Positions 5,559 through 21,284 of a stretch of DNA of 64,000 nt are shown here, piece by piece. The stretch's first letter is position 1, and the number at the start of each line of letters is the position of its first letter. Origin of the DNA: Alphaproteobacteria bacterium (GTDB lineage Bacteria; Pseudomonadota; Alphaproteobacteria; SHVZ01); assembly GCA_009694025.1 (NCBI GenBank), contig SHVZ01000007.1:5872-69871 (forward strand), written 5' to 3'. Below the pieces are notes generated by a model. It ran no database searches, was not told where the DNA came from, and saw only the letters and a list, made by a program, of their open reading frames with translations. A program made the translations under genes and the position numbers.

Positions 5559-5574
5559 CCGCCTGACAGGATCT

Positions 5575-5610
5575 CCGGGGCCGGCGGAGGGTCTCCGCCG
5601 CCGGCCCCGG
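5575..5610 (+). promoter_or_regulatory. GC-rich intercistronic stem-loop between SBP and permease genes
   Basis: ccggggccggcggag / ggt / ctccgcc(gcc)ggccccgg: 5 bp + 3-nt bulge + 10 bp stem with a 3-nt loop. No U-tract follows, so it is more likely an mRNA-stabilising or partial-attenuation element than a full terminator. Confidence 0.45.
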
Positions 5611-5620
5611 CGTCCGATTG

Positions 5621-6550: not shown

Positions 6551-7416
6551 CGTCGCTTGCAGGCCCGACACGACGCCTCCCCTTTGGGCTCTCGCCGATT
6601 GCGGCCATCGCCGCCTTCGTCCTCCTGGTGTTCGTGGTGATGGCGCTGCTGGCGCCGTGGCTCTCCCCCTTCGACCCGGCGCGTCAGACGCTGTTGGCAC
6701 GCCTGAAGCCGCCGGGCTTCACCACGGTGTCGGGCGCCGTCTACTGGCTCGGCACCGACGAGGTCGGCCGCGATCTTCTCTCCCGCGTCATCTATGGCGC
6801 CCGCATCTCGCTGCTGGTCGCCGTCCTCTCCGTCGCCGTCTCCGGGACCCTCGGCACCTGCCTCGGCATGATCGCCGGCACCTACCGCGGCTGGGTCGAG
6901 ATCGTGATCATGCGGCTGGTCGACATCGTGCTGTCGATCCCGGCGATCCTGCTCGCCATCGTCACCGTCGCCGTGCTCGGCCCCGGCCTTCTCAATCTGG
7001 TGCTGGTCCTCGGGCTCACCCGCTGGCCCCGCTACACCCGCGTCGCCTACGGCCAGACCCTGTCAGTCGCCAACCTGACCTACGTCACCGCCGCCCGGAT
7101 CTCCGGCGTGCGTGGACCCCGCCTGCTGCTCCGCCACATGCTGCCGAACATCCTGGCGCCGATGATCGTGGTGGCGACCCTGGAATTCGGCCTGATGGTG
7201 CTGTTCGAGGCCGGCCTCTCCTTCCTCGGACTCGGCATCCAGCCGCCGACGCCGAGCTGGGGCTCGATCCTGGCGGTCGGGCGCAACTACGTCGGCCAAG
7301 CCTGGTGGATCGCGACGCTGCCGGGCTTCTGCCTGTTCGGTCTGGTGCTGTCGATCAACCTGCTCGGCGACTTCCTCCGCGATCGTTTCGATCCGCGCTC
7401 CCAGACCAGCTCCTGA
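6547..7416 (+). CDS. ABC transporter permease (DppC/OppC type)
   Basis: Last 289 codons of track ORF 5926..7416. ATG 6547 overlaps TGA 6548-6550 (ATGA). N-terminal LLAPWLSPFDP and GTDEVGRDLLSRVIYGARISL boxes typical of DppC. Confidence 0.9.
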   Translation: MTSLAGPTRRLPFGLSPIAAIAAFVLLVFVVMALLAPWLSPFDPARQTLLARLKPPGFTTVSGAVYWLGTDEVGRDLLSRVIYGARISLLVAVLSVAVSGTLGTCLGMIAGTYRGWVEIVIMRLVDIVLSIPAILLAIVTVAVLGPGLLNLVLVLGLTRWPRYTRVAYGQTLSVANLTYVTAARISGVRGPRLLLRHMLPNILAPMIVVATLEFGLMVLFEAGLSFLGLGIQPPTPSWGSILAVGRNYVGQAWWIATLPGFCLFGLVLSINLLGDFLRDRFDPRSQTSS

Positions 7417-7437
7417 CGCCCTGAGAGGACACAGACG

Positions 7438-8223
7438 ATGCGTTTCGACTTCAAGGACAAGAAGGTTGTGATCACTGGCGCCGCCGGCGTCATCGGCCGG
7501 CGTATCGCGGCCGACTTCGCCGCCGCCGGAGCGCTCCTCTGTCTCTCCGACAACCGGGCGAAGAAGCTGGCGGCGCTGCCGAGGGAGCTCGGCCTGAAAA
7601 AGGGCCGCTACCTGACCCACGCGACCGAGCTGACGGACGCCAAGTCGATCGAGACGCTGGTGCGCCAGGTGGCCAAAGCCTGGAGGTCTCCGGACATCGT
7701 CGTCAATAACGCCGGCATCTATCCGCGCATGGGTTCGCTCCTCAAGATCACGACCGAGGCCTACGACCAGCTGATGGACGTGAACCTCCGGGCGCCATTC
7801 CTGGTTTCCCGCGATTTCGCCAATCTGATGGCGGCAAACAAGGTCAAAGGCACGATCATCAACATCTCCTCCGGCGCATCCCGCCGCATGGGGATGGGCT
7901 CGGTCCCCTATTGCACGTCGAAGACCGCGATCGACCGCCTGACCAAGGGCTTCGCCCTCGAGCTCGCCCCGCTCGGCATCCGCGTCAACGCGGTCGAGCC
8001 GGGCTTCGCCGCCGGCAGCGAAGTGAGCCTGCTCTCCGCCGAATACGTAAAAGCGATGATGGCGCGCATCCCCATGGGCCGCGCCTCGGGTCCGCATGAC
8101 GCTCCGAACGCAATTCTCTTCCTCTGCTCGGAAGCGGCGAGCTTCATCACCGGCGCTACGCTCGCCGTCGACGGCGGCAACTCCATCGGCACGTTCAACC
8201 CGGATTTCTACAAGAAGCGCTGA
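7438..8223 (+). CDS. SDR-family oxidoreductase
   Basis: SD GAGAGGA upstream. TGAAGVIGRRIA Rossmann box, NNAG, catalytic YCTSK (YxxxK). Confidence 0.9.
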   Translation: MRFDFKDKKVVITGAAGVIGRRIAADFAAAGALLCLSDNRAKKLAALPRELGLKKGRYLTHATELTDAKSIETLVRQVAKAWRSPDIVVNNAGIYPRMGSLLKITTEAYDQLMDVNLRAPFLVSRDFANLMAANKVKGTIINISSGASRRMGMGSVPYCTSKTAIDRLTKGFALELAPLGIRVNAVEPGFAAGSEVSLLSAEYVKAMMARIPMGRASGPHDAPNAILFLCSEAASFITGATLAVDGGNSIGTFNPDFYKKR

Positions 8224-8237
8224 GCAGGACCGATCCC

Positions 8238-9113
8238 ATGTTCAAGTTCGCCGCTCCCTACGAATGGCCGAAGGGCTACACCTCGGCTGCGGTGTTCTCC
8301 GCCGACGTCGACGGCGAGAGCCCTTACATCTGGCGCAACCGCGGCCAGAAGGTCGAGAAGCTGAGCGAGATCGAGCAGCGACGGTTCGGGCCGCGCGTCG
8401 GGCTCTCACGCATCCTCGGTCTCTGCGACGAGTTCGGCATCAAGGGCAGCTTCTACGTGCCGGCCTGGATCGCCAAGACCTACCCGGAGATCCTGCCGGC
8501 GATCGTCAAGGGTGGTCACGAGGCCGCCGCCCACGGCTATTTCCACGAACGGGTGGACGAGCTCGGCGAGGCCGAGAACGACCTGATCCTCGACCGTTCG
8601 ATCAAGGTGTTCAAATCGCAGCTCGGCAAGGGGCCGGTCGGTTACCGCTCGCCCTCCTGGGAGCTGACGCCGGCGGTGCATCGCTGCCTCAGAAAGCGCC
8701 GCTTCCTCTACGACAGCTCGCTCATGGGCATGGACCATCCGTACACGCTGGACGGTCTCGCCGAGATCCCCGTGCAGTGGTTCGTCGACGACGCGCCCTA
8801 TTTCCGCTACGTCGGCGGCCCCACCGACAAGACGCCGCCGGCCAACCCGCTCTCGGTGCTCGAAGCCTGGACCGAGGAGTTCGAGGCGACGCGCGAGTAC
8901 GGCACACTGTTCATGATCACCATCCACCCGTGGATCTCCGGCCGTGGCCAGAGAATCCGAATGCTCCGGCGGCTGCTCGATCGCGTCTGCAAGACCCGCG
9001 GCGTCTGGGTGACGACGGCCGAGGAGGTCGCCCGGCACCACCAGAAGTCCGTCAACGCGAAGAAGTTCGCGATGAAGCTCAAGCTCGTCTCGACCGACGT
9101 CGGCCTGACCTAG
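8238..9113 (+). CDS. polysaccharide deacetylase / NodB-homology (PuuE-like) hydrolase
   Basis: Motifs FSADVDGES (D-D), HGYFHE (HxxxH), RSPSWE, and ITIHPWISGR typical of the PuuE-like subgroup. Confidence 0.88.
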   Translation: MFKFAAPYEWPKGYTSAAVFSADVDGESPYIWRNRGQKVEKLSEIEQRRFGPRVGLSRILGLCDEFGIKGSFYVPAWIAKTYPEILPAIVKGGHEAAAHGYFHERVDELGEAENDLILDRSIKVFKSQLGKGPVGYRSPSWELTPAVHRCLRKRRFLYDSSLMGMDHPYTLDGLAEIPVQWFVDDAPYFRYVGGPTDKTPPANPLSVLEAWTEEFEATREYGTLFMITIHPWISGRGQRIRMLRRLLDRVCKTRGVWVTTAEEVARHHQKSVNAKKFAMKLKLVSTDVGLT

Positions 9114-9117
9114 GGCC

Positions 9118-10110
9118 GTGACCGCAGCGCCCGCCCTGTTGTCCGTCGAGAACCTCACCGTCGTCATCGGCGGTGCGGCGGTGGTCGACCGTGTGTCCTT
9201 CGAGGTCGGGGGCGGCCAGGTCGTCGCCATCGTCGGCGAGAGCGGCTGCGGGAAGTCGATGACCGCCTTCGCCCTGATGGACCTGCTGCCGGCCGCGGCC
9301 CGCCGGACCAGCGGGCGCATCGAGCTGTCCGGCCGGCCGATCCAGGATCTCGGCGACGCCGGCATGCGGAAGCTGCGCGGCAAAGAGATGTCGATCATCT
9401 TCCAAGAGCCGGTCGCCGCGCTCGATCCGTTGATGACCGTCGGCGATCAGCTCATCGAGGCGATCCGGGCGCACCACGACCTCGACCGCGCCCAGTCGAT
9501 GGCCCATGCCCGGAAGCTCCTGGAGAGCGTCGGTATCACCGACGCCGACCTCCGGCTCAAGCAGTACCCGTTCGAGCTGTCCGGCGGCATGTGCCAGCGG
9601 GTGATGATCGCCGGCGCGCTCGCCGGCCAGCCGCGCCTGCTGATCGCCGACGAGCCCACGACCGCCCTCGACGTCACCATCCAGGCGCAGATCCTGGAGC
9701 TGATCAAGGCGCGGCGGGCGGAAATCGGCGCCAGCGTCATCCTGATCACCCACGACATGGGTATCGTCGCCGACATGGCCGACCGTGTCCTCGTCATGTA
9801 CGCCGGCCGCATCGTCGAGGAGGCGGATGCCTTCGATCTCTTCGCCCGGCCGCGCCATCCCTATACGGAAGCGCTGATGAAGAGCGTTCCCCGCCTCGAT
9901 GACGTGCCGGGAACCCGCCTGCCGGTGATCGAGGGCGCGGTGCCGCGACCGGGCAGCCATGGCCCCGGCTGCCGCTTTGCCGACCGCTGCTTCCTGGCGA
10001 TCGACCGGTGCCGGGCTGAGGAGCCGGGCCTTCTGCCGGTCGACGGCGGCGGCCGCCGGTCGGCCTGCTGGCGCCGCGACGACGTCGGGCTCGCCGGAGG
10101 CCCGGCATGA
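9118..10110 (+). CDS. ABC transporter ATP-binding protein (DppD/OppD type)
   Basis: GTG start 4 nt after the preceding stop. Walker A GESGCGKS, signature LSGGMCQR, Walker B LLIADEPTTALD, oligopeptide C-terminal HPYT box. Confidence 0.9.
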   Translation: MTAAPALLSVENLTVVIGGAAVVDRVSFEVGGGQVVAIVGESGCGKSMTAFALMDLLPAAARRTSGRIELSGRPIQDLGDAGMRKLRGKEMSIIFQEPVAALDPLMTVGDQLIEAIRAHHDLDRAQSMAHARKLLESVGITDADLRLKQYPFELSGGMCQRVMIAGALAGQPRLLIADEPTTALDVTIQAQILELIKARRAEIGASVILITHDMGIVADMADRVLVMYAGRIVEEADAFDLFARPRHPYTEALMKSVPRLDDVPGTRLPVIEGAVPRPGSHGPGCRFADRCFLAIDRCRAEEPGLLPVDGGGRRSACWRRDDVGLAGGPA

Positions 10111-11093
10111 CCGGCGGCGCCCCAGGCGAGCTGCTCGGCCTGACCGACCTCGCCGTTCATTTCACCGGCCGGCGGAACTGGCGCGGACGCTATCCGCCGC
10201 CGGTGCGGGCGGTCGACGGTGTGACGCTCGCGGTCGGACACCGGGAGACCCTCGGCCTCGTCGGCGAAAGCGGCTGCGGCAAGTCGACGCTCGGCAACGC
10301 CGTGCTCAGGCTGGTACGGCCGACCGCGGGCCAGGTCCGCTTCGACGGCCGCGACGTCACGGCCGCGACCGGCGACGAGCTGCGGGTGTTCCGGCGAAAC
10401 GTTCAGATGATCTTCCAGGATCCCTATTCGGCCCTGAATCCGAAACTGAAAGTGGGCGAAAGCGTCGGTGAGCCGCTCCTTGCCCATGGCCTCGCCGACG
10501 GCGAGGCGCTCGGCCGCCAGGTCAACGAGCTGCTCGATCTGGTCGGCCTGCCGCCGGAACGCGCCACCCGCTACCCGCACGAGTTCTCCGGTGGTCAGCG
10601 CCAGCGCCTGGTGATCGCGCGCGCGCTCGCGCTCCGGCCGAAGCTGATCGTCTGCGACGAACCGGTCTCGGCTCTCGATGTCTCCATTCGCTCGCAGATC
10701 CTCAATTTGCTTATGGAGTTCCAGCAGCGCCTGGGCTTGAGCTACCTCTTCATCTCGCACGATCTCTCGGTGGTCCGGCACATCAGCCACCGGGTCGCGG
10801 TGATGTATCTCGGCCGCGTGGTCGAGCTGGCGCCACGCGACAATCTCTTCCGCGAGCCGCTGCATCCATATACCGAGGCGCTGATCAGCGCGATTCCGCT
10901 CCCCGACCCGATCCAGCAGCGAAAGCGCCACCGAATCATCCTGAAGGGCGAGCTGCCGAAGCCGACGGCACCGCCGCCGGGCTGCCCCTTTCACACCCGC
11001 TGCCCGATCGCCCAGCCGATGTGCCGGGAAAAGGTGCCGCCGCTCGAGGAAAAACGGTCGGGCCACTGGGCCGCCTGCCACCTCCGAAACTAA
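10107..11093 (+). CDS. ABC transporter ATP-binding protein (DppF/OppF type)
   Basis: ATGA overlap with the upstream gene. GESGCGKST, FSGGQRQR, IVCDEPVSALD, HPYTEAL. Confidence 0.92.
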   Translation: MTGGAPGELLGLTDLAVHFTGRRNWRGRYPPPVRAVDGVTLAVGHRETLGLVGESGCGKSTLGNAVLRLVRPTAGQVRFDGRDVTAATGDELRVFRRNVQMIFQDPYSALNPKLKVGESVGEPLLAHGLADGEALGRQVNELLDLVGLPPERATRYPHEFSGGQRQRLVIARALALRPKLIVCDEPVSALDVSIRSQILNLLMEFQQRLGLSYLFISHDLSVVRHISHRVAVMYLGRVVELAPRDNLFREPLHPYTEALISAIPLPDPIQQRKRHRIILKGELPKPTAPPPGCPFHTRCPIAQPMCREKVPPLEEKRSGHWAACHLRN

Positions 11094-11108: not shown

Positions 11109-12134
11109 TCAATGCGGCAGATGGTCGCCGCGCCAGTGGCCGCCGCGTATTTCGCCCGGCCCGGTGCGGCCATAGAGGACCTTGAAGCTGTCGGGCAGCG
11201 GCCGGCTGTTCGCCGTCGACAGCCAGATGCGGATCATGTGGCGCCGCTGGTTCTCGTCGTCGCCGTCGAAGAACTCGGTGCGCGAATGCAGCACCATATG
11301 GTTGCTGAACAGCTCGATGTCGCCGGGCTGCATGGCGAAGTAGACGGAGGTCTCCTCGGCAATGGCCGCATGCAGATCGATCGCTTCCACCTGCTCCGGG
11401 CGGATACGCGGCACCTCCGGGAATTCCTGGGCGGCCCGCACCAGGCGTCGCGAGATGTGGGAGGCGAACCAGCCGTCCTTGAGGCCGAAGACCGGCATCG
11501 TGTAGTAGCGCGGCTCGCCCGGCCGCTCCTCGGTGTTGCGCGAGCTGTGATAGGGCTCGAACAACCGCTCGAGCAGGTCCGGACGGCGCCTCAGCATCTC
11601 GTTGTGGATGGTGATCGAGCTCGCGACCTTGCTGATCCCGCCCTGACGGGCCGTGCGGAGGGAGAGAAGGCCGGTGATGTCGGCAGTGTCCGTATGAAAC
11701 ATCAGCTCGGCCCTCGTGCGGTTGCCGCGCGAGAACGGGGTGCCGGGCTTGTCGCCGAAATCCATGACGTCGTCGAACTTCGCCGCCTGCTGGGCGAAGG
11801 GGACGGCGGCACCGAGATAGAGGCTCAAGCCCCAGAACATCTGGCGGAGCTCGTCCTTGGTATAGCGCATTGCGTCGATGCCGCGCAGCAGGACCAACCC
11901 GCGACCGTTTTCGATCTCCTCGGCGACGAGCTGAAGCTGTTCTGCCGCCTGCTCCAGCGGGAAGTCGGCCTTCGTCGCCTCATAGAGCGGGATGCCTCGG
12001 GTCATCACCGCCTTGGTCGCGCTGCGGAGCTCGTCCAGGGCGCCTGGCGTCAGCGCGCGGATCCAACGATCCTCACGGCCAAGCTGCGCGCCATACCAGG
12101 CTGCCGGCGACGAGATGGGCTGACGGACCGTCAT
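11109..12134 (-). CDS. TauD/TfdA-family Fe(II)/2-oxoglutarate dioxygenase
   Basis: Track ORF 11109..12299 is over-extended. The internal ATG at 12134 has SD GGAGAG 6 nt upstream and gives 341 aa. HxD box FHTDTAD and distal His LHSRTEF. Confidence 0.85.
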   Translation of the reverse strand: MTVRQPISSPAAWYGAQLGREDRWIRALTPGALDELRSATKAVMTRGIPLYEATKADFPLEQAAEQLQLVAEEIENGRGLVLLRGIDAMRYTKDELRQMFWGLSLYLGAAVPFAQQAAKFDDVMDFGDKPGTPFSRGNRTRAELMFHTDTADITGLLSLRTARQGGISKVASSITIHNEMLRRRPDLLERLFEPYHSSRNTEERPGEPRYYTMPVFGLKDGWFASHISRRLVRAAQEFPEVPRIRPEQVEAIDLHAAIAEETSVYFAMQPGDIELFSNHMVLHSRTEFFDGDDENQRRHMIRIWLSTANSRPLPDSFKVLYGRTGPGEIRGGHWRGDHLPH

Positions 12135-12292
12135 GGACACTCTCCGCTGATGAACTCGCCCTTGAAGGACATTGTTGCAGATTTGCCCTGAGCCGATAAG
12201 CTTTCCGACGGGAAAACCGGCTGGTCGGGGCGAGGCGCCGCGATGCAACCGGACGGCAATTGCACGGATACAACGCGGGAGAGGTAAGGCCG

Positions 12293-13984
12293 ATGACACC
12301 GAGGATGCCCTTCAAGGCCCTGTTGGCGCTTGGCGCCGGCGTGCTGGCCCTAACATCCGTTCAGCCGGACGCCTGGGCGGCCGGCGACCGGGTCCGCTCG
12401 ATCGAGCTGACTGCCGACACCAAAGCCGCCAATCCAAACGCCAACCAGGCGGCCTATCTGCTTGCCGACATGTGGAAGAAGCTAGGCCTGGACGTGAAGG
12501 TCAAGGAAGTTCCGTACAAGCAGAAGCTCGACGTGGTCTACTTCGACCGCAGCACCTGCGAGGGTGCGGCCTGCTTCGATCTCGCCATGTGGTCGATCGT
12601 CGGCCGGCCCGAGCGCAGCGACCCGGACGAGGTGATCTACAACCTCTTCCACTCCTCGACCGGCGCCAAGGGCTACAACTATCCGGGCTACGCCAATCCG
12701 GACTACGACAAAGCCGCTGCCGGCCAGCAGGTCGAGACCGATCAAACCAAGCGTCGCGAGCTCGTCTTCAAGGCCCAGGAGATCCAGGCCAACGATCCCT
12801 CCTACGTCTTCTTCGTCAACCCGATCGTCAACTACGCCATCCGCAAGGACGTGTTCGACGAGAAGACGGTCGTCGAGCAGTCCGGCCTCGGCATCCTGAA
12901 CTTCTGGACCCACACCAAGCTCACGCCGATCGGGGCGAAGAAGGACATCATCCTCAACACCTCGGACAACCTCTTGAACCTCGTCCCGATGGCGATCGGC
13001 GGCGCTGCGGCGTCGTGGATCACCGACCTGGTCTGGGACCGCATGCTGCGCATCAGCCCGAAAGGCCTGCCGGAACCATGGGCGGCCGAGTCCTACAAGT
13101 GGGTCGACGACAAGACCATCGACGTCACGCTCCGCACCGGCATGAAGTGGCATGACGGCAAGCCGGTCACGGTCGACGACGTGATGTTCACCTTCGGCGA
13201 GGTCAAGGCGATGGCGCCGATGTACGCGCCCTTCCTCGACGTCATCGCCAAGGTGGAGACGACCGGCGAGCGCACGGTCAGGATGCATCTCAAGAACCCG
13301 TCGGCGCCGTTCCTGACCTCGACGCTCGCCAAGGTGAACCTGACGCCGGCCCACATCTGGCGCCCGGTGGTGAAGGATCTGCAGGCCAAAGGCCAGAACC
13401 TGGACAGCTACCAGCCCGACGAGCTGATCGGCTCCGGCCCGTACAAGTTCGTCCATTGGCGGCGCAACGCCGAGGTGCTGCTCGCCGCCAACAAGGACCA
13501 CTGGTCGCCGCCCAAGGCGGAGCACTGGATCCTCCGTATCGTGCCGAACCTCGAAGCGACGCTCGGCATGATGAAGCAGGGCGAGATCAACTTCCTCAGC
13601 GAGTACCGCGGCGACTTCGAGACGCTTCAGCAGGTCTCGAAGGAAAGCGGCAACATCGCGATCAAGAGCGGCGTCACCATCGGCGTCGAATACATGGGCT
13701 TCAACCTGAAGCGGAAGCCGATGAACGACACCGCCTTCCGCCGGGCGCTGTCGCTCGCAACCGATCGCAACCTGCTGGCGGCGTCGGCCTGGAGTGACCA
13801 GGCGGTGCCGACCAACTCGATTGTCTCGACGGTCCTCGACTATTGGCACAATCCAGCGGTCGCGAAGGGAATGTTCGATCTGGAGAAGGCCAAGCAGATG
13901 CTCACCGCCGCCGGCTATAGCTGGGTCGGCGGACGGCTGCACTACCCCGACGGGGTCAAGGACACGGTGATGGCGACCAAGTAG
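12293..13984 (+). CDS. ABC transporter substrate-binding protein, family 5, with swapped segment order (apparent circular permutant)
   Basis: Track ORF starts at TTG 12260; ATG 12293 has SD GGGAGAGG and yields a clean signal peptide (LALTSVQPDAWA/AG). All family-5 sequence blocks are present, but the normally C-terminal block comes first (see findings). Confidence 0.88.
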   Translation: MTPRMPFKALLALGAGVLALTSVQPDAWAAGDRVRSIELTADTKAANPNANQAAYLLADMWKKLGLDVKVKEVPYKQKLDVVYFDRSTCEGAACFDLAMWSIVGRPERSDPDEVIYNLFHSSTGAKGYNYPGYANPDYDKAAAGQQVETDQTKRRELVFKAQEIQANDPSYVFFVNPIVNYAIRKDVFDEKTVVEQSGLGILNFWTHTKLTPIGAKKDIILNTSDNLLNLVPMAIGGAAASWITDLVWDRMLRISPKGLPEPWAAESYKWVDDKTIDVTLRTGMKWHDGKPVTVDDVMFTFGEVKAMAPMYAPFLDVIAKVETTGERTVRMHLKNPSAPFLTSTLAKVNLTPAHIWRPVVKDLQAKGQNLDSYQPDELIGSGPYKFVHWRRNAEVLLAANKDHWSPPKAEHWILRIVPNLEATLGMMKQGEINFLSEYRGDFETLQQVSKESGNIAIKSGVTIGVEYMGFNLKRKPMNDTAFRRALSLATDRNLLAASAWSDQAVPTNSIVSTVLDYWHNPAVAKGMFDLEKAKQMLTAAGYSWVGGRLHYPDGVKDTVMATK

Positions 13985-14007
13985 CGGCCGGTCGGCGCCG
14001 TCTTCAG

Positions 14008-14041
14008 CGGGCGGGAGCTTAGGCTCCCGCCCGTTTCGTTT
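14008..14041 (+). terminator. intrinsic terminator between convergent genes
   Basis: Perfect 11-bp stem cgggcgggagc / ttag / gctcccgcccg followed by tttcgttt. On the minus strand the same stem lacks a U-tract. Confidence 0.6.
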
Positions 14042-14045
14042 GGCG

Positions 14046-15014
14046 CTATCGCCGGCCCGTCTTTGGCTTGACGCCCGGCAGCTTCTCGGCACCCTCGAGG
14101 TCGCCGACCATGTAGCCGTAGTCGCCGGGCTCGACCAGGTTCGGCGTCAGGTGAGAGAGGATCATCACGCCCCGCTTGATCGGGTTCTTGATGACCTCCA
14201 GTTCCTTGAAGGTATACGGGCTGACGACGCGGCCGAGGACCTTGCCGCCGGCGATCTCCTCGCCGAGCGGCGGCGCCTCGGTATAGAGGAACCCGCCCTG
14301 GGTCGGGAAGATCGTCGGAATCGCGCCCAAGACCGTCTGCGCCATCGGCGGCGACGGCGGCGCGGTGTCCATCTTCAAGGTGCGCATGCAGTTCTTGATG
14401 CCCTCGACGCCGCGGGCGATGTAGGGGCCCTGGTCGACCACGCCGCCGCCGAGCTCGATCGTCACCGACGGCACGCCGCGCGCGGTCGTCACCGCCTTGG
14501 AGGTGCCATTGAACACCGGCCCCGCCCGATCCGCCTGCGGGCGGAAGAGATAGCGGGTGCCAAAGGCGCGCGAGAGATCGAGGGCGTTGTGGACGTAGGT
14601 ATAGTCGACCGTCGGCCGGTCGGTGCCGGTGTGGAAGTCGAGATAGGCTTCCAGATGGTCCAGGAACTCGCTCTTGATCTTGGCGGCCAGCAGGTCGGTG
14701 AACATGCCCTGAGCCTTGCCCGGAAAGACCCGGTTCAGGTTCTGGCCGTCGACCGGCGTCACCCGCTTGTTCGCCTGGAAGGCGAGCGGGTTGGCCACCG
14801 GCAGCAGCCACAGCCGGCCGCGGAAGTCGCCGTCGGCGTAGTGTTTGGCGATCTCGCGGATGACGTAGGTGCCGGTCGGCTCGTTGCCGTGGATGGCGCC
14901 GGAGATGCCGAGTACCGGCCCCTTCCCCTTCTTGCCGACGATCTCGTGGATGTAGAGGCAAACCGCCTCGCCGTTGGCGAAGTGGCTCACGGGTATGCGA
15001 CGCATCGTGCTCAT
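14046..15014 (-). CDS. succinylglutamate desuccinylase / aspartoacylase (AstE/AspA, M14-like) family deacylase
   Basis: Track ORF extends to 15080. ATG 15014 has SD GGAGA upstream. Zinc box HGNEPTG, NRVFPG, C-terminal beta domain. Confidence 0.85.
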   Translation of the reverse strand: MSTMRRIPVSHFANGEAVCLYIHEIVGKKGKGPVLGISGAIHGNEPTGTYVIREIAKHYADGDFRGRLWLLPVANPLAFQANKRVTPVDGQNLNRVFPGKAQGMFTDLLAAKIKSEFLDHLEAYLDFHTGTDRPTVDYTYVHNALDLSRAFGTRYLFRPQADRAGPVFNGTSKAVTTARGVPSVTIELGGGVVDQGPYIARGVEGIKNCMRTLKMDTAPPSPPMAQTVLGAIPTIFPTQGGFLYTEAPPLGEEIAGGKVLGRVVSPYTFKELEVIKNPIKRGVMILSHLTPNLVEPGDYGYMVGDLEGAEKLPGVKPKTGRR

Positions 15015-15033
15015 CGGCCGGTCTCCGCCTTTG

Positions 15034-15738
15034 TCAGGATTTCCTGGTCCGTGCCGCCTCGCGGGCCGCACGCTCAGCATCCGCTGCCGACTTGATCTTG
15101 TCGGTGATGCCCAACCGATCCGCCGGCTTCTGACCCTGGCGCATCTTCTCGAAATTGGCCGGCTGCTTGCCCTGGCGGTCGAGCGCCATGTCGACCAGAT
15201 AGCGCACGTCCTCCGGCGGCAGCACGATCACGCCGCTTTCATCGGCCAGCACCGCATAGCCCGGCAGCACCGCGGCGCCGCCGACGCAGATCGGCACATT
15301 GATGGCGCCGCCACTTCCATAGGGATGGCAGGTGATCGGCGAGTAGCCGCGGAGCCACCCCGGGAAGTCGAATTCCCGGAACCGGGAGGCGCCGGTCGAC
15401 GGTCCGTCGATGACCACCCCGGCCGCACCTGTCAGCTTGGCCGCCAGCGTCGTGCCGCCGCCCCAGCAGGCGTTGTGGTTGTCGCCGAGCCGGTCGATCA
15501 TCAGGACGTCGCCAGGCCTCAGCATACCGATCGCATAGGGGATCATCCCGGAATCGTGCCCCGGGCAGGCGACGGTGACGGCCGTTCCGACCACCCGGCG
15601 CTCCGGCATCGCCGCTTTGATCGAGCCGTTGACGCATCCCCAATGCCGGTGGTGCCCGATCGTCTCGGTCCGGCACTTCGCCAGCATCTCCAAGAGCACA
15701 GGCTCCACCGGCGGCGGCATGTCGTTGATCTCGCACAT
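15034..15738 (-). CDS. RraA-like / class II aldolase-decarboxylase fold protein, copy B
   Basis: 234 aa. RraA-family core WGGGTTLAAKLTGAAGVVIDGPSTG. Charged C-terminal tail. Confidence 0.85.
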   Translation of the reverse strand: MCEINDMPPPVEPVLLEMLAKCRTETIGHHRHWGCVNGSIKAAMPERRVVGTAVTVACPGHDSGMIPYAIGMLRPGDVLMIDRLGDNHNACWGGGTTLAAKLTGAAGVVIDGPSTGASRFREFDFPGWLRGYSPITCHPYGSGGAINVPICVGGAAVLPGYAVLADESGVIVLPPEDVRYLVDMALDRQGKQPANFEKMRQGQKPADRLGITDKIKSAADAERAAREAARTRKS

Positions 15739-15744
15739 GGCGAT

Positions 15745-16440
15745 CTACCTCTTCTTCCGTCCGCGGGCCTCGTCCTCGACCGCCGCGGCCTTAGTGATGC
15801 GCGGCCCGAGGCCGGAGATCTCGGCGATCTTCTCCCCGGCGCGAAGCCGCGCATGCATGGCGGGATATCCTTCCTGGCGCTTGATCGCGCCCTCGGCGAG
15901 ATAGCGGACATCCTCTGGCGGAAGCACGATCACCCCGCTCTCGTCGGCGAGCACCGCATAGCCCGGCCGGACCACGGCACCGCCGATGCAGATCGGCACG
16001 TTGATGGCCCCACCATTGCCGTAAGGATGGCAGGTGACCGGCGAGTATCCCCGGATCCATGCCGGCAGGTCGAACTCCCGGAACTTGGATGAGCCGGTCG
16101 ACGGCCCGTCGATGACAACGCCGACCGCGCCCGCGACCTTGGCCGCCAGCGTCGTGCCGCCGCCCCAGCAGGAATTGTGGTTGTCGCCGAGCCGATCGAT
16201 GCAGATGACGTCGCCCGGCCGGATCATATTCATCACATAGGTGACGAGACCGGAGTCGTGCCCGGGAATGGCGAGGGTGACCGCGGTGCCGACGACCCGC
16301 CGCTCCGGCATCACCGCGGCGATCGAGCCGTGCACGCTGCCCCATTCGCGGTAGTGGCCGATCGACTCCGTTCGGCACTCGGCCAGCAGATCGAGCAGCT
16401 CCCGGTCGACCTGGGGCGGCATCTCGTTGATCTCGTACAT
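15745..16440 (-). CDS. RraA-like protein, copy A (tandem paralogue)
   Basis: 231 aa, about 70% identical by eye to the downstream copy, 6-nt spacer. Core WGGGTTLAAKVAGAVGVVIDGPSTG. Confidence 0.85.
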   Translation of the reverse strand: MYEINEMPPQVDRELLDLLAECRTESIGHYREWGSVHGSIAAVMPERRVVGTAVTLAIPGHDSGLVTYVMNMIRPGDVICIDRLGDNHNSCWGGGTTLAAKVAGAVGVVIDGPSTGSSKFREFDLPAWIRGYSPVTCHPYGNGGAINVPICIGGAVVRPGYAVLADESGVIVLPPEDVRYLAEGAIKRQEGYPAMHARLRAGEKIAEISGLGPRITKAAAVEDEARGRKKR

Positions 16441-16453
16441 GCTCGGGCGGGCC

Positions 16454-17218
16454 TCAGTTCTGAATGCGGATCGTGGAGGCGCCGTCGATCACCAGGTTGG
16501 TGCCGGAGGTGTAGCCCGAGACTGGACTCGCCAGGAAGACGACGCCGGCCGCGACCTCCTCGGGCTTGCCGAAGCGGCCGAGCGGGTTGAGCTTGAGCAT
16601 CCGCTCATAGCGCTCCGGCTCGTTCCGCTTGCGCAGGTCCCACACCCCACCCTCGAAGAAGATCGAGCCCGGCGATACCGCGTTGACGCGGATCCCCTTC
16701 TTCGCCACATCGTGACTCAGGTGCTTCATGTAGGCGAGGATCGCCGACTTGACCGATGGATAGGGTTTCCTCGGGCCGTAGACCTGCACGGCGCCGGTCG
16801 TAGCGATGAAGATGACGGATCCCGCGTCCGAGCGCTCGATCACCGGCAGGGCCGCCTCGACGCCATTGACGGTGCCCATGACGTCGACGTCGAGGGCGTG
16901 GCGCCAGCCGGCCTCGTCGGCAGTGGCGACGCTGAGCGCGCTGACGTTCGAGACGTAGATGTCGAAGCCGCCGAGCGCCTTGTCCATGTTGGCGACCCAG
17001 CGGCGGACGGCATCGCCGTCGGCGATGTCGACCGCCTCGCCGACGGCCTTGACGCCCTTCGCCCGGAGCGCCGCGACCGCGGCTTTGACACCGTCCTCAC
17101 CGCGAGCGCAGATGCCGACGTCGCAGCCCTCGTCGGCGAAGGCTTCAGCGATGGCCCGACCGATCCCGCGCGATCCGCCGGTGACGATCGCCTTTCGCCC
17201 CTTGAGTTTGAGATCCAT
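16454..17218 (-). CDS. SDR-family oxidoreductase
   Basis: TGGSRGIGRAIA box, YPSVK (YxxxK). SD GGGGGACGGAG upstream. Confidence 0.9.
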   Translation of the reverse strand: MDLKLKGRKAIVTGGSRGIGRAIAEAFADEGCDVGICARGEDGVKAAVAALRAKGVKAVGEAVDIADGDAVRRWVANMDKALGGFDIYVSNVSALSVATADEAGWRHALDVDVMGTVNGVEAALPVIERSDAGSVIFIATTGAVQVYGPRKPYPSVKSAILAYMKHLSHDVAKKGIRVNAVSPGSIFFEGGVWDLRKRNEPERYERMLKLNPLGRFGKPEEVAAGVVFLASPVSGYTSGTNLVIDGASTIRIQN

Positions 17219-17280: not shown

Positions 17281-18255
17281 TCAGAGCAGGTGGCAGGCGG
17301 CGCGGTGGCCGGGCGCCACCTCGCGCATCGGCGGCTCCTCGTCGGCGCAGCGCGCGAAGGCGTAGGGACAGCGGTCGCGAAAGCGGCAGCCGCCGACCTG
17401 CGCCTGGGCCGCCGACAGGCTCCCCTTGATCGGCAGCGGTTCGCGCGATTGGTCGACGCGCGGCACCGGGACCGCCTGCACCAGCGCCCGGGTGTACGGG
17501 TGCAGCGGCCGGGCGACCACCTCCGCCGATGGGCCGTCCTCGACCATCTTGCCGAGATACATGACCACCGTGCGGGCGCAGACGTAGCGGACCAACGCGA
17601 AGTCATGGGAGATGTAGACGGCGGTCAAGCCCATGGTCGCGTGCACGTCGCGCATGACGTTGAGGATTCCGGCGCGGACGCTGACATCCAGCATCGAGAC
17701 CGGCTCGTCAGCGACGATGAAACGCGGCTCCAGCACCAGTGCGCGGGCCAGCACCACCCGTTGGAGCTGACCGCCGGAGAGCTGATGGGGGTAGCGGTCG
17801 TAGTAGCCCTCGACATCCGGCAGTCGGACCCGGTGCATAGCCACGCGCATGCGCTCGGGATGCTCCTCCTTCGGAACGCCGGCGTTCTGCAGCGGCTCGC
17901 GCAACGCCCGGAAGACGGTGAAGCGTGGATTGATGGCGTCGAAGGGGTTCTGGAAGACCAGCTGAACCTCCCGGCGGAAGCGCTTCAGCGCTGCCCCGGC
18001 GAGATCGGCGAGATCCCCGCCGTCGAACCGGATCGTGCCGGCGGTCGGTCGGGTCAGCTTGAGAAGGAGCCGGCCGGTGGTGGTCTTGCCGCAGCCGGAC
18101 TCGCCGAGGAGGCCGACGGTCTCGCCCTCGCCGATGGTGAGGTCGATGCCGTCGACAGCGCGGGAGACCGGCCGCTCGCCGCGCAGCACCTCGCCGAGCC
18201 GGCGGGTGACCGGAAAGTGCTTCTCGAGGCCGCTGGCGACTACGAGCGGAGCCAC
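17281..18255 (-). CDS. ABC transporter ATP-binding protein (DppF/OppF type)
   Basis: GTG start overlapping the upstream gene by 16 nt. GESGCGKTT, LSGGQLQR, IVADEPVSMLD, HPYT. Confidence 0.9.
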   Translation of the reverse strand: MAPLVVASGLEKHFPVTRRLGEVLRGERPVSRAVDGIDLTIGEGETVGLLGESGCGKTTTGRLLLKLTRPTAGTIRFDGGDLADLAGAALKRFRREVQLVFQNPFDAINPRFTVFRALREPLQNAGVPKEEHPERMRVAMHRVRLPDVEGYYDRYPHQLSGGQLQRVVLARALVLEPRFIVADEPVSMLDVSVRAGILNVMRDVHATMGLTAVYISHDFALVRYVCARTVVMYLGKMVEDGPSAEVVARPLHPYTRALVQAVPVPRVDQSREPLPIKGSLSAAQAQVGGCRFRDRCPYAFARCADEEPPMREVAPGHRAACHLL

Positions 18256-19247
18256 GTGCCGGCCTCCCCGGCGAGGACGCGCAACTCCTCAGCTTCCGAC
18301 GTCCGCCGGCACGCCGCAAGGCTGCCGCTGGCGACATCGACCAAAGGCGGCCGCGCTGTTCGGCATTCCGGCTCGACGAAGGGGCAGCGGTCGGCGAAAG
18401 AGCAGCCTTCCGGCGGGGCGATCAGGTCCGGCGGGCTGCCTTCGATCGGTACCAGCGTGCCGCCGCCGCCATGGAGCTCGGGGAAGGCCTTGCAGAGGCC
18501 CATGGTATAGGGATGGAACGGCCGGCCCAGCACCTCGGCCGTCGCCCCGGACTCGATCACCTCGCCCGCGTACATCACCACCACGCGGTCGCTGGCATAG
18601 GCGACGACGCTGATGTCGTGGGTGATCAGGATCACCGAGAGGCCGAGCCGTCCTTGCAGCTCCTTGAAGGTGTCGAGCACCTGGCGCTGGATGATCACGT
18701 CGAGGGCGGTCACCGGCTCGTCGGCGATCACCAGCCGCGGCTCCAGCGCCAGGGCGAGTGCGATCGCCGCGCGCTGACGCATGCCGCCGCTGTACTGGTG
18801 CGGGAAGTCGCGGAGACGGCCGGGGTCGAGCCCGACCATGTCGAACAGCTCGGCCGCCCGGCGGCGGGCGGCACGCTTGTCCATGCCGCCGCGCTCGACC
18901 AGGACCTCAGCCATCTGCGTGCCGACGCGGTAGACCGGATCGAGCGAGTTCATGGCGCTCTGCGGGATGAAGGCGATGTCGCGCCATCGCCGCGACGCCA
19001 TCTCGCGTGGGCTCAGGCCCAGCAGGTCGACGCCCTGGAACATCAGCCGGCCGCCGGCGATCCGCGCCGTCTTCGGCATCACCCCGATGATGGCACGGGC
19101 GAGCGTGGTCTTGCCGCAGCCGGACTCGCCGACGACGCCGACGACCTGCCCTTCCGGCACCTCGAAGCTGGCTCCGCGAACCGCCTGGGCGACGCCGCGA
19201 TCGGTCTTGTAGTAAACCTCGAGGTCCTGGACGGAGAGAACGGACAC
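18240..19247 (-). CDS. ABC transporter ATP-binding protein (DppD/OppD type)
   Basis: GTG start. GESGCGKTT, YSGGMRQR, VIADEPVTALD, HPYT. Confidence 0.9.
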   Translation of the reverse strand: MSVLSVQDLEVYYKTDRGVAQAVRGASFEVPEGQVVGVVGESGCGKTTLARAIIGVMPKTARIAGGRLMFQGVDLLGLSPREMASRRWRDIAFIPQSAMNSLDPVYRVGTQMAEVLVERGGMDKRAARRRAAELFDMVGLDPGRLRDFPHQYSGGMRQRAAIALALALEPRLVIADEPVTALDVIIQRQVLDTFKELQGRLGLSVILITHDISVVAYASDRVVVMYAGEVIESGATAEVLGRPFHPYTMGLCKAFPELHGGGGTLVPIEGSPPDLIAPPEGCSFADRCPFVEPECRTARPPLVDVASGSLAACRRTSEAEELRVLAGEAGTWLRS

Positions 19248-19253
19248 TAAGCC

Positions 19254-20165
19254 TCAGTCCCGGAGCCGCGGGAACAGAACCTCCTCGAAGCCGCGGCTGA
19301 CGAAAAAGCCGGCGACGACGACGAGGATGATGCAGACGCCCGGCGGCACGAACCAGTGATACCAGCCTCTGGACAGCGCCTGGGAGGCGTAGGCGTTCTG
19401 GAGCATCGAGCCCCAGGACACGGTGTCGCCACCACCGAAGCCTAAGAAGCTGACGCTGGCCTCGGTCAGGATCGCCCAGCCGACGGCGATCGAGCCATAG
19501 ACGAAGGACAACGGCAGCACGTTCGGCGCGATGTGCACGAACAGGATGCGGAACGGGCTCGACCCAGTCACCCGCGCCGCCTCGACGAAGGTGCGCTCGC
19601 GGAGGCTCAGCACCTGGCTGCGGATGACGCGGGAGGTCGACGGCCAGACCACCAGCGCCATGCCGATCACCACATTCCACATGCTGGGCTCAAGGAAGCT
19701 CGACAGCACGATGACGAAGGGAAGGAACGGGATGCCGAGAGCGACGTCGGCGATCCGCATCATCACCATGTCGACGAAGCCGCGGAAAAACCCCGCGACG
19801 AGGCCGACCAGGGTCCCGATCATCACCACCGCGAAGGCCGCGGTGATGCCGACGATGAGCGCGCTCCGCGCCCCGTAGACGAGCTGGGAATAGATGTCGC
19901 GGCCGAGGTTGGTGGTGCCGAGGATGTGCTGGGCGAAGGGCGGCAGGTTGGACGCGACGCGGCCGTTCGGCCGGTAGAGGATCTGGTTCGGGTCGTGGGT
20001 GGCGAGCTGGTCGGCGAAGATCGCGATCGTCAGGAAGACCGTGTAGATCAGAACCCCGGCGGTGGCGAAGGGATCCCGCCGGACCAGGGCGAAGGCGCGG
20101 CCGACAGCCGCAAACCGGCCTCGCCCCCCGCCGCGTACCGCGGACGGCTCAGCGGTGACCGGCAT
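19254..20165 (-). CDS. ABC transporter permease (DppC/OppC type)
   Basis: ATG 20165 overlaps the upstream permease by 17 nt. GTTNLGRDIYSQLVYGARSAL box. Confidence 0.9.
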   Translation of the reverse strand: MPVTAEPSAVRGGGRGRFAAVGRAFALVRRDPFATAGVLIYTVFLTIAIFADQLATHDPNQILYRPNGRVASNLPPFAQHILGTTNLGRDIYSQLVYGARSALIVGITAAFAVVMIGTLVGLVAGFFRGFVDMVMMRIADVALGIPFLPFVIVLSSFLEPSMWNVVIGMALVVWPSTSRVIRSQVLSLRERTFVEAARVTGSSPFRILFVHIAPNVLPLSFVYGSIAVGWAILTEASVSFLGFGGGDTVSWGSMLQNAYASQALSRGWYHWFVPPGVCIILVVVAGFFVSRGFEEVLFPRLRD

Positions 20166-21135: not shown

Positions 21136-21284
21136 GTCTATTTCACCCCTGCGCGGGCGCCACTCTGGGACAGACGGGCGCCGGCGGCAAGAGCGACCCG
21201 TCTCAATCTCCACAGGCACGCACGTCCTTGACGGCTCCGGCATCACTCCACATGATCCCGGCCGATCTCAGCGAAGGAATCCCC

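What the first reader, a model, noticed from the sequence alone, without database searches (positions are those of the whole stretch)
12293..13984. Family-5 (DppA/OppA-type) substrate-binding protein with circularly permuted segment order
I compared the 563-aa product with the four canonical family-5 SBPs in this window (4038, 30421, 34629, 44268); its segment order is swapped.
- After a normal signal peptide (LALTSVQPDAWA/AG) it opens with the block that is normally C-terminal: LGLDVKVKEV ... SDPDEVIYNLFHSS ... GYNYPGYANPDYD ... RRELVFKAQEIQANDPSYVFFVNPIVNYAIRKDV ... ILNFW (aa ~33-210, nt ~12389-12922).
- Compare the C-terminus of SBP 4038: GLKVNIATS ... DADGVIYPLFQS ... DKDFDAAV ... RMDAYRKAFELLERDVPGIGLFQGVAIYAARKEL ... 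FDMKW.
- A short linker (TPIGAKK) then joins the block that is normally N-terminal: DIILNTSDNLLNLVP ... WAAESYKWVDDKTIDVTLRTGMKWHDGKPVTVDDVMFTF ... GSGPYKF.
- The chain stops right after the EKAKQMLTAAGY helix, which in canonical members lies about 60% of the way along.
This is the signature of circular permutation: the old termini are fused and new termini are opened in the second lobe. In the DppA/OppA fold both native termini sit in lobe I, so this is structurally plausible. I am not aware of a described natural permutant in this family and cannot search. The gene is convergent with an SBP-less Dpp-type importer operon (17281..21135) and is probably its receptor.
Basis: partly seen in the sequence, partly recalled or inferred. 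Interest (0 to 1): 0.8.

Follow-up and report, generated by a model that had tools for sequence, protein, structure and literature searches.

The report
Circularly permuted peptide-type ABC binding protein
This gene encodes a normal-looking nutrient-capturing protein of a bacterial ABC importer whose chain is "cut and re-joined" (circularly permuted) relative to every studied relative. The same rearrangement is shared by a large, apparently undescribed family in bacteria and archaea.

Summary
ORF 12293..13984 (+, 563 aa) is a family-5 (PF00496, cluster C) substrate-binding protein with swapped segment order. After the signal peptide, aa 30-212 match the canonical C-terminal third (E. coli DppA 342-507). 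A roughly 5-residue linker follows, then aa 217-543 match DppA 1-341. Re-joining the two blocks in silico gives one collinear PF00496 match (2-365/368) and an end-to-end alignment with mature DppA. AlphaFold2 gives a confident single fold (pLDDT 89.5, pTM 0.87). No PDB entry aligns over more than about two thirds of the chain.

It is not an oddity of this genome. All 252 full-length relatives among 270 retrieved share the order and the breakpoint. They come from Alphaproteobacteria, Chloroflexota, Actinomycetota, Bacillota and Archaea. In over 30 genomes the gene heads an SBP-permease-permease-ATPase-ATPase operon.

The ligand is unknown, probably a peptide or amino-acid derivative. I found no description of permutation in this family. 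The only natural precedent found is T. pallidum MglB-2 (cluster B). Verdict: a real, new variant of a known kind, of moderate interest.

The parts
12293..13984 (+). Gene for the circularly permuted family-5 substrate-binding protein (563 aa plus stop)
   Evidence: ORF and translation. PF00496 at 232.8 bits in two swapped stretches. Identical to NCBI MSP48174.1 apart from the annotated start.
12293..12379 (+). Signal peptide, aa 1-29 (MTPRMPFKALLALGAGVLALTSVQPDAWA, then AG)
   Evidence: Read from the sequence: basic n-region, hydrophobic core, A-W-A cleavage motif. AF2 pLDDT is below 50 for aa 1-26. Not run through a signal-peptide predictor.
12380..12928 (+). Block A, aa 30-212. It is the canonical C-terminal third: the second half of lobe II/domain III plus the last lobe-I strand, equivalent to DppA 342-507.
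   Evidence: PF00496 HMM positions 289-366. Matches S4038 415-487, S30421 376-508 and 5u4o 423-486. DppA mapping.
12926..12940 (+). Linker joining the old C- and N-termini, aa 212-216 (P-I-G-A-K). P212 is invariant and G214 is at least 90% conserved among close relatives.
   Evidence: DppA E507 aligns to T211 and DppA K1 to K217. Conservation. Mean pLDDT of the 10-residue block aa 211-220, which holds the linker, is 94.
12941..13921 (+). Block B, aa 217-543. It is the canonical N-terminal two thirds: lobe I, the extra domain II and the first part of domain III, equivalent to DppA 1-341.
   Evidence: PF00496 HMM positions 2-284. Matches S4038 23-347 and PDB 5u4o 66-360 and 1xoc 68-349. DppA mapping.
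13922..13981 (+). New C-terminal tail, aa 544-563 (WVGGRLHYPDGVKDTVMATK). It is a short hairpin after the EKAKQMLTAAGY helix. The family consensus is AGYxWDxxGRLxYP.
   Evidence: Consensus. The model has strands at 543-545 and 548-550. The same ending occurs in archaeal members L039 and L042.
17281..21135 (-). SBP-less Dpp/Opp-type ABC translocator, the probable partner. Permease B 20149-21135, permease C 19254-20165, ATPase D 18240-19247, ATPase F 17281-18255.
   Evidence: Pfam BPD_transp_1, OppC_N, ABC_tran and oligo_HPY. It is 57-68% identical to the transporters encoded directly downstream of permuted SBP genes in L003 and L004, and 52-72% identical to those in L001 and L005-L028.
14046..17218 (-). 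Enzyme genes on the same strand directly downstream of the translocator genes: SDR 16454-17218, two RraA-like genes 15745-16440 and 15034-15738, and an AstE/AspA-type deacylase 14046-15080.
   Evidence: Pfam. The same set lies next to the 70%-identical SBP in L001. Co-transcription is inferred, not shown.
11109..12137 (-). Divergent TauD/TfdA-family dioxygenase gene upstream of the SBP gene
   Evidence: PF02668 at 108.5 bits. A 31%-identical homologue lies upstream of the SBP in L037.

Best explanation
The gene encodes a functional, exported, circularly permuted cluster C (DppA/OppA/NikA-type) substrate-binding protein.

Compared with the canonical chain, the polypeptide starts in the middle of lobe II (domain III), at the strand equivalent to DppA 342. 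It runs through the canonical C-terminus, crosses a 5-residue linker directly into the canonical N-terminus, and continues through lobe I and the extra domain II. It re-enters lobe II and stops after the helix equivalent to DppA 330-341. Every segment of the fold is present exactly once, and the two hinge cross-overs are kept. The protein should therefore still work as a Venus-flytrap receptor.

Shown:
- the swapped order;
- the completeness of the fold;
- conservation of the arrangement in a large family;
- genomic coupling of that family to its own lineage of DppBCDF-type translocators.

Inferred:
- In this window the protein delivers its ligand to the SBP-less translocator at 17281..21135.
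- The ligand is a small peptide or an amino-acid-derived compound that is then processed by the neighbouring deacylase, RraA-like, SDR and TauD-like enzymes.
- The permutation arose once, most simply by tandem duplication and fusion followed by in-frame loss of the first copy's N-terminal two thirds and the second copy's C-terminal third.
For: Permuted order:
- The two PF00496 stretches are swapped.
- The de-permuted control gives a single 2-365/368 match.
- The de-permuted sequence aligns end-to-end with DppA 1-507.
- Window SBPs and PDB chains show the same swap.

Fold:
- AF2 gives pLDDT 89.5 and pTM 0.87, and the region of the fused old termini is modelled confidently.
- All top Foldseek PDB hits are cluster C SBPs. 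They align over only 324-413 columns with TMq 0.37-0.47, as expected for a sequential aligner on a permutant.

Real and conserved:
- All 120 best homologues are 445-596 aa, at 48-100% identity and 75-100% coverage.
- 132 of the best 150 cluster representatives at 50% identity, down to 24-30% identity, have the same order. Sixteen are fragments and only 2 are canonical.
- Members occur in cultured Alphaproteobacteria, other bacterial phyla and Archaea, with the same C-terminal motif.

Transport role:
- In more than 30 of about 40 genome loci the permuted SBP gene is the first gene of an SBP-permB-permC-atpD-atpF operon.
- The window's 17281..21135 system is orthologous to those partners.

Single origin:
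- The breakpoint is the same everywhere.
- The permuted sequences form one bipartition in NJ trees, with 94/100 bootstraps for 81 members against 43 canonical sequences.
Against: - No coordinates were available to me, so no permutation-aware superposition was done. The structural claim rests on sequence mapping plus model confidence.
- In this window the SBP gene is not in the translocator operon. It is convergent and 3.3 kb away. A second Dpp-type system (4038..11093) lies just upstream, although that one has its own canonical SBP.
- Ligand and binding were not tested.
- The residue equivalent to DppA D408 is ambiguous because of a 2-residue indel (E107, or R105/R108), and R355 is not conserved.
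- Bootstrap support for monophyly falls to 34/80 when two very divergent archaeal members are added. The sister relation to the closest canonical proteins is unsupported.
- No tandem-fused intermediate was seen.
Confidence: 0.85

Rival explanations
1. aa 30-212 is an unrelated N-terminal domain fused to a C-terminally truncated SBP, so this is not a permutation.
For: On its own the N-terminal block scores only 24.9 bits against PF00496, below the 32.4-bit gathering score.
Against: - The block matches exactly the HMM positions (289-366) missing from the rest of the protein.
- Appending it restores one collinear full-length match and raises the score to 240.4 bits.
- It independently matches the C-terminal regions of S4038, S30421, 5u4o, 1xoc, P0222 and P0251.
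- It aligns with DppA 342-507, including the GxxxDPD and RxxxxxxAQ motifs.
Confidence: 0.02
2. The order is an artefact: a mis-assembly, a chimeric contig or a frameshifted pseudogene.
For: The window appears to come from a metagenome-assembled genome. The protein is identical to a MAG protein, MSP48174.1.
Against: - The same architecture and length recur in hundreds of independent assemblies. These include isolate genomes such as Alsobacter ponti, Marinibacterium profundimaris, Rhodophyticola porphyridii, Roseomonas sp., Paracoccus sp. M683 and Natrinema altunense.
- The reading frame is uninterrupted.
- 71 columns are invariant among the 55 aligned sequences.
Confidence: 0.01
3. The protein is a genuine permutant, but in this genome it serves another partner. 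That could be the upstream 4038..11093 Dpp-type system or a sensor/chemotaxis pathway, rather than the 17281..21135 translocator.
For: - The gene is not co-operonic with any permease here.
- In the 70%-identical relative L001 it sits directly downstream of another ABC system's ATPase genes.
- DppA is reported to act in chemotaxis towards dipeptides as well as in transport (PMC8566422).
Against: - The upstream system has its own canonical SBP at 4038. Its permeases and ATPases are only 33-46% identical to the partners of permuted SBPs elsewhere, against 57-68% for the 17281..21135 system.
- The 17281..21135 operon has no SBP gene of its own.
- Synteny between the SBP, the AstE/RraA/SDR genes and this translocator is kept in L001.
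Confidence: 0.1
4. The permuted architecture arose several times independently instead of once.
For: Bootstrap support for a single permuted clade drops to 34/80 when the most divergent archaeal members are included. Only NJ trees were made.
Against: - The breakpoint, the C-terminal motif (AGYxWDxxGRLxYP) and the linker position are the same in all members examined, including L039 and L042.
- All point-estimate trees recover one permuted bipartition.
- The associated permeases co-vary with the SBPs.
Confidence: 0.1

Closest known systems
E. coli DppA and other cluster C / family-5 SBPs (PF00496: OppA, AppA, NikA/NikZ, GsiB, TM1223; PDB 1DPP, 1XOC, 5U4O)
   Same: - Same fold components and sequence family. 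All segments of DppA 1-507 are present once.
- All top Foldseek and phmmer PDB hits are of this kind.
- Exported, and encoded with DppBCDF-type permeases and oligo_HPY ATPases.
   Different: - Chain connectivity differs. The termini are moved from lobe I to a loop of lobe II (between DppA 341 and 342), and the old termini are joined by 5 residues.
- It is far below the curated cut-off of every characterised NCBIfam equivalog, for example DppA 91 bits against 1005 and NikA 85 against 393.
- The carboxylate-binding R355 of DppA is not conserved.
Treponema pallidum Tp0684 (MglB-2), the 'Type Ic / Cluster Bc' ligand-binding proteins (PMC4990184)
   Same: - A naturally circularly permuted ABC-transporter binding protein that still binds its ligand.
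- The permuted topology is shared by a family of homologues.
- Many members are membrane-tethered, as are about half of the diverse members here, which carry a lipobox.
   Different: - A different structural class (cluster B, sugar-binding, Type I), with no sequence relationship.
- There the permuted part shows poor sequence conservation and needs a fourth hinge crossing. Here both blocks are clearly homologous to the canonical ones and the number of hinge crossings is unchanged.
- A crystal structure exists for MglB-2. None exists for this family.
Closest canonical relatives: archaeal-type SBPs with a C-terminal transmembrane anchor (P0222, P0251; L043 Bathyarchaeia, L044 Desulfurococcales)
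   Same: - They are the highest-scoring non-permuted proteins among 1.84 billion representatives: 199 and 183 bits, about 32-33% identity.
- They share the WxFxxxxP(V/L)G ending of the last lobe-I strand.
- Their permeases are the closest to those of the permuted family.
   Different: They have the canonical order (block B before block A) and a Thr/Pro-rich linker plus a TM helix at the C-terminus. The sister relationship is not statistically supported.

Membership tests
Pfam PF00496 SBP_bac_5 / cluster C substrate-binding proteins | Significant match to the family profile above the curated threshold | tested here: met
   232.8 bits against a cut-off of 32.4.
Pfam PF00496 SBP_bac_5 / cluster C substrate-binding proteins | Canonical N-to-C order of the segments (one collinear match to the profile) | tested here: not met
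   There are two stretches in swapped order: aa 260-548 match HMM 2-284, and aa 38-124 match HMM 289-366. The order is swapped in the same way against S4038, S30421, 5u4o and 1xoc.
Pfam PF00496 SBP_bac_5 / cluster C substrate-binding proteins | Complete set of fold segments, each present once (both lobes plus the extra domain) | tested here: met
   The de-permuted sequence gives one match at 2-365/368 and aligns with DppA 1-507 end to end. The AF2 model is a single confident fold, pTM 0.87.
Pfam PF00496 SBP_bac_5 / cluster C substrate-binding proteins | Three-dimensional superposition on a solved member when permutation is allowed | not testable with these tools
It covers 324-413 columns at TMq 0.37-0.47.
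ABC-importer receptor (Dpp/Opp type) | Export signal at the N-terminus | tested here: met
   By inspection: a basic n-region, a hydrophobic core and an AWA-then-A cleavage site. Residues 1-26 are disordered in the model. Relatives carry Sec, Tat or lipobox signals. No dedicated predictor was run.
ABC-importer receptor (Dpp/Opp type) | Encoded with cognate permease and ATPase genes | tested here: met
   For the family, it is the first gene of an SBP-perm-perm-ATPase-ATPase operon in more than 30 loci. In the window, the orthologous SBP-less operon lies 3.3 kb away and is convergent.
ABC-importer receptor (Dpp/Opp type) | Binds a ligand and closes around it, then docks on the translocator | not testable with these tools
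   This needs purified protein (DSF or ITC) and transport assays.
Characterised equivalogs (NCBIfam DppA, OppA, NikA, GsiB, CntA, SapA, Opp4A) | Score above the curated equivalog cut-off | tested here: not met
   The best hit is Opp4A at 98.9 bits against 650. DppA scores 91.4 against 1005, NikA 84.7 against 393 and GsiB 71.7 against 594.
Cluster Bc permuted binding proteins (TpMglB-2 type) | Type I / cluster B sugar-binding fold with permuted N-lobe strands | tested here: not met
   Only the family-5 (cluster C) profile and structures are hit. The resemblance is in the phenomenon, not in ancestry.

The most novel reading that the evidence does not exclude
The window's gene belongs to an ancient, single-origin and so far undescribed subclass of cluster C binding proteins, 'cluster Cc' by analogy with Brautigam's 'Bc'. 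In this subclass the chain termini, and in archaea and Gram-positives the membrane tether, have moved from lobe I to lobe II. The subclass has spread across Bacteria and Archaea together with its own lineage of Dpp-type translocators. It would give a natural experiment on how termini position, tethering and chain connectivity affect Venus-flytrap receptors, and a naturally validated split or insertion site for biosensor design.
Probability: 0.6. Interest if true: 0.6.

Novelty: new variant of a known kind. Interest (0 to 1): 0.55.

Why it matters
Family-5 binding proteins are among the most abundant and best-studied bacterial receptors, with many solved structures, all of them with the same chain order. 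A large natural family with a different connectivity has four consequences:

- **Classification.** It adds a topological subclass to the SBP classification. Only cluster B had one among the cases I found.
- **Annotation.** It explains why domain annotation of these proteins looks truncated or split.
- **Protein evolution.** It gives a clean case for studying how circular permutation arises in exported proteins, which must keep a signal peptide.
- **Engineering.** It marks a naturally tolerated site for new termini (the DppA 341/342 loop) and shows that the old termini can be joined by 5 residues. This is directly useful for engineered permuted or split binding-protein biosensors.

For genome annotation, it also assigns a receptor to an otherwise orphan Dpp-type transporter.

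Tried and rejected
- **Literature.** Eight full-text searches combined circular permutation with substrate-, solute- or periplasmic-binding protein, OppA/DppA, PF00496 and SBP_bac_5. Only the cluster B precedent MglB-2 turned up. PMC2588589 and PMC8694067 mention the terms in unrelated contexts.
- **Solved permutant.** None was found. Foldseek and phmmer against PDB return only canonical chains, partly aligned.
- **Tandem-fused intermediates.** None of the best 150 cluster representatives exceeds 634 aa. No targeted search was possible.
- **Genome scan with the broad alignment.** A scan with alignment A2 failed because no stretch was conserved enough. It was repeated with A1.
- **Archaeal loci.** The tblastn ranges suggested that L043 and L044 are permuted. 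Extracting the ORFs showed they are canonical with C-terminal TM anchors.
- **Ligand anchor.** Mapping the peptide-anchoring residues of DppA gave D408 aligned to E107 and R355 to K44. The result is ambiguous because of an indel and poor conservation, so I make no ligand claim from it.
- **Expression signals.** Promoter and terminator scans around the gene gave nothing above shuffled expectation.
- **Taxonomy of the closest canonical relatives.** The cluster look-up returned no names.
- **Sister group.** The sister-group hypothesis (P0222-like archaeal SBPs) is not supported by NJ bootstraps.
Full report
**1. Observation**

The ORF at 12293..13984 (+) is intact and encodes 563 aa. Pfam PF00496 (SBP_bac_5) matches at 232.8 bits in two stretches. 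Residues 260-548 match HMM positions 2-284. The N-terminal block (aa 30-212, tested alone) matches HMM positions 289-366.

Other comparisons show the same swap:
- BLASTP and phmmer against the canonical family-5 proteins of the same window: query 206-541 aligns to S4038 23-347, query 110-187 to S4038 415-487, and query 49-187 to S30421 376-508.
- phmmer against solved structures: 5u4o has query 238-543 on chain 66-360 and query 108-171 on chain 423-486. 1xoc is analogous.

As a control I re-joined the blocks in silico (aa 213-563 followed by aa 30-212). That sequence gives one collinear PF00496 match, 2-365 of 368, at 240.4 bits. The canonical SBP at 4038 gives 1-364.

**2. Anatomy**

I aligned de-permuted family members with mature E. 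coli DppA (taken from NC_000913.3) and with canonical SBPs. The query covers DppA 1-507 end to end.

| Feature | Query | DppA equivalent |
|---|---|---|
| New mature N-terminus | A30 (strand RSIELTA) | K342 (strand FSIDLWAM) |
| End of block B | S543, then the 20-residue tail WVGGRLHYPDGVKDTVMATK | E341, end of helix PEKAKALLKEAGLE |
| Old C-terminus | T211 | E507 |
| Old N-terminus | K217 | K1 |

The linker between the old termini is P-I-G-A-K. P212 is invariant and G214 nearly so among close relatives.

From my memory of Dunten & Mowbray 1995, not re-checked here, DppA domain I is residues 1-33, 183-262 and 479-507, domain II is 34-182, and domain III is 263-478. With those boundaries, the new termini open a loop inside domain III. 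Domain I becomes two segments instead of three, and the two hinge crossings (query about 177/178 and 463/464) are retained. [quoted passage not shown]

AlphaFold2, run with a 55-sequence alignment, gives mean pLDDT 89.5 and pTM 0.87. Only aa 1-26 (the signal peptide) and aa 561-563 fall below 50, and the block containing the fused old termini scores about 94.

Foldseek against PDB returns only cluster C SBPs (AppA, TM1223/TM1226, DppA, NikZ, OppA and others). Each aligns over 324-413 columns at TMq 0.37-0.47. That is what a sequential aligner should give for a permutant. It also shows that no solved structure up to April 2026 has this connectivity. I could not run a permutation-aware superposition because the coordinates are not exposed.

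**3. A family, not a one-off**

- The word-indexed search returned 1228 relatives, a capped figure. The best 120 are 445-596 aa (all but one fragment 544-596 aa), at 48-100% identity and 75-100% coverage.
- The exhaustive HMMER search of 1.84 billion cluster representatives found 301 clusters at E <= 1e-30.
- I scored the two blocks separately against all 270 retrieved proteins. 252 have block A before block B, 16 are fragments, and only 2 (P0222 and P0251) are canonical.
- A scan of one genome per GTDB species found full-length collinear matches in many lineages:
  - cultured Alphaproteobacteria: Alsobacter ponti, Marinibacterium profundimaris, Rhodophyticola porphyridii, Roseomonas, Roseibium and Paracoccus sp. 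M683;
  - Chloroflexota, Actinomycetota, Bacillota, Atribacteria and Deferribacteres MAGs;
  - Archaea.
- After extracting the ORFs, Desulfurococcaceae archaeon AG1 (L039) and Natrinema altunense (L042) are permuted and share the C-terminal motif AG(Y/F)xWDxxGxLxYP. L043 (Bathyarchaeia) and L044 (Desulfurococcales) are canonical.
- Among 114 diverse representatives, about half carry a lipobox and 32 are strongly acidic, which looks haloarchaeal.
- No member among the best 150 is longer than 634 aa, so no tandem-fused intermediate was seen.

**4. Origin**

I built NJ trees from de-permuted sequences plus 43 canonical ones: DppA, the four window SBPs, P0222, P0251 and 36 sequences from genome loci. 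The 81 permuted proteins form one bipartition, with 94/100 bootstraps (a first run had a numerical flaw in the distance cap). Adding the two most divergent archaeal members keeps the bipartition in the point estimate but lowers support to 34/80.

The identical breakpoint in all members is the stronger argument for a single event. The nearest canonical proteins are archaeal-type SBPs with a C-terminal Thr/Pro-rich linker and a TM anchor. Their neighbouring permeases are the closest to those of the permuted family. Their position as sister group is not statistically supported.

The usual duplication-fusion-truncation route would work here if the deletion in the first copy were in frame behind the signal peptide. 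That route is an inference.

**5. Function**

In L003 (7.8-Mb genome) and L004 the 49-53% identical homologue is the first gene of a classic SBP-permease-permease-ATPase-ATPase operon. The same layout holds in more than 30 of about 40 genome loci, and permease identity falls in step with SBP identity. The family therefore acts as ABC-importer receptors with its own translocator lineage.

In the window the gene stands alone, flanked as follows:
- Upstream and divergent: a TauD-like dioxygenase gene.
- Downstream and convergent: a minus-strand cluster of dppB-, dppC-, dppD- and dppF-like genes (21135..17281), then SDR, two RraA-like genes and an AstE/AspA-type deacylase.

The partners of permuted SBPs in L003 and L004 are 57-68% identical to this SBP-less system. 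They are 33-46% identical to the window's other Dpp-type system at 5618..11093, which has its own canonical SBP at 4038. The 70%-identical relative L001 keeps the SBP, AstE, RraA, SDR and translocator neighbourhood.

The ligand is unknown.
- The protein is far below every curated NCBIfam equivalog cut-off.
- DppA D408 anchors the peptide alpha-amino group (PMC8566422). It aligns with E107, which is E or D in 28 of 40 family members. A 2-residue indel next to the nearly invariant R108-x-D110-P111 makes this uncertain.
- DppA R355 is not conserved.
- In the 42-53% clade an M28 peptidase is a conserved neighbour in 19 loci, usually divergently transcribed just upstream.
- Here the neighbours are a deacylase, RraA-like proteins, an SDR and a dioxygenase.

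My inference is a small peptide or an N-modified amino acid.

**6. Comparison with what is known, and novelty**

The protein works like, and descends from, cluster C/family-5 SBPs, but it fails the collinearity that all described members share.

The only natural precedent I found is T. pallidum MglB-2. Its circularly permuted cluster B fold led its authors to propose 'Type Ic/Cluster Bc' (PMC4990184). That case involves another fold class, a poorly conserved permuted part and an extra hinge crossing.

Eight full-text searches found no description of permutation in family 5. Subscription-only literature and database notes could not be searched, so prior mention cannot be excluded. Source annotations call these proteins simply 'ABC transporter substrate-binding protein', 'peptide/nickel transport system substrate-binding protein' or 'twin-arginine translocation pathway signal protein'.

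**7. Verdict**

The observation and the interpretation are both correct. This gene is an ordinary member of a large, conserved and apparently undescribed permuted subclass of a very well known receptor family. That is a new variant of a known kind. It would interest people working on binding proteins, protein topology evolution and biosensor design, but it does not change how ABC import is understood. Interest 0.55.

Noticed in passing
window 15034-15738 and 15745-16440 (-): Two adjacent RraA-like (PF03737) paralogues. The related locus L001 has a single copy that matches both at 69-70% identity, which suggests a recent tandem duplication in this genome.
   Followed up: partly
L030 3635-5353 and 5227-7635; the same spacing in L031-L033, L035, L038 and L039: In the distant (about 30% identity) branch of the permuted family, the OppC-type permease ORF is about 570 aa, roughly 270 aa longer at the N-terminus. 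The next ORF is 802 aa and may be a fusion of the two ATPases.
   Followed up: partly
L003-L005, L008, L012-L019, L021, L024, L026, L027, L029, L040 (upstream of the SBP gene): An M28-family peptidase of about 575 aa (PF04389) is a conserved neighbour of permuted-SBP operons in 19 loci, usually divergently transcribed. It often occurs with an IclR regulator, a zinc ADH and an Asp/Glu-racemase-like gene. The window has no M28 homologue.
   Followed up: partly
P0222 (L086 8001-9731), P0251, L043 7815-9548, L044 7755-9728: The closest canonical relatives of the permuted family end in a Thr/Pro-rich linker and a C-terminal TM helix, an archaeal type of anchoring. L086 has an S9 peptidase gene directly upstream. 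Desulfurococcales carry both this canonical form (L044) and a permuted form with an N-terminal anchor (L039).
   Followed up: partly
window 4038-11093, 30421-, 34629-, 44268-: The 64-kb window carries five family-5 SBP genes and at least two Dpp/Opp-type translocator systems (5618..11093 and 17281..21135). This is an unusually dense set of peptide-type importers interleaved with catabolic enzyme genes.
   Followed up: no
window 12482-14092 (-): A 536-aa ORF runs antisense across almost the whole SBP gene. Similar long shadow ORFs occur all over the window. This looks like a feature of a high G+C sequence rather than a gene.
   Followed up: no
L002 2972-4731 versus L001 3368-4729: A canonical SBP gene upstream of the permuted one is called as two ORFs (203 + 342 aa) in one assembly and as one 453-aa ORF in a near-identical contig. 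This is probably a frameshift or sequencing error.
   Followed up: no
window 21228-23444 (+): A 738-aa TPP-enzyme (PF02775) gene is divergent from the translocator operon and overlaps the long form of the permease B ORF. The permease start at 21135 (ATG) fits the homologues better than the GTG at 21246.
   Followed up: partly
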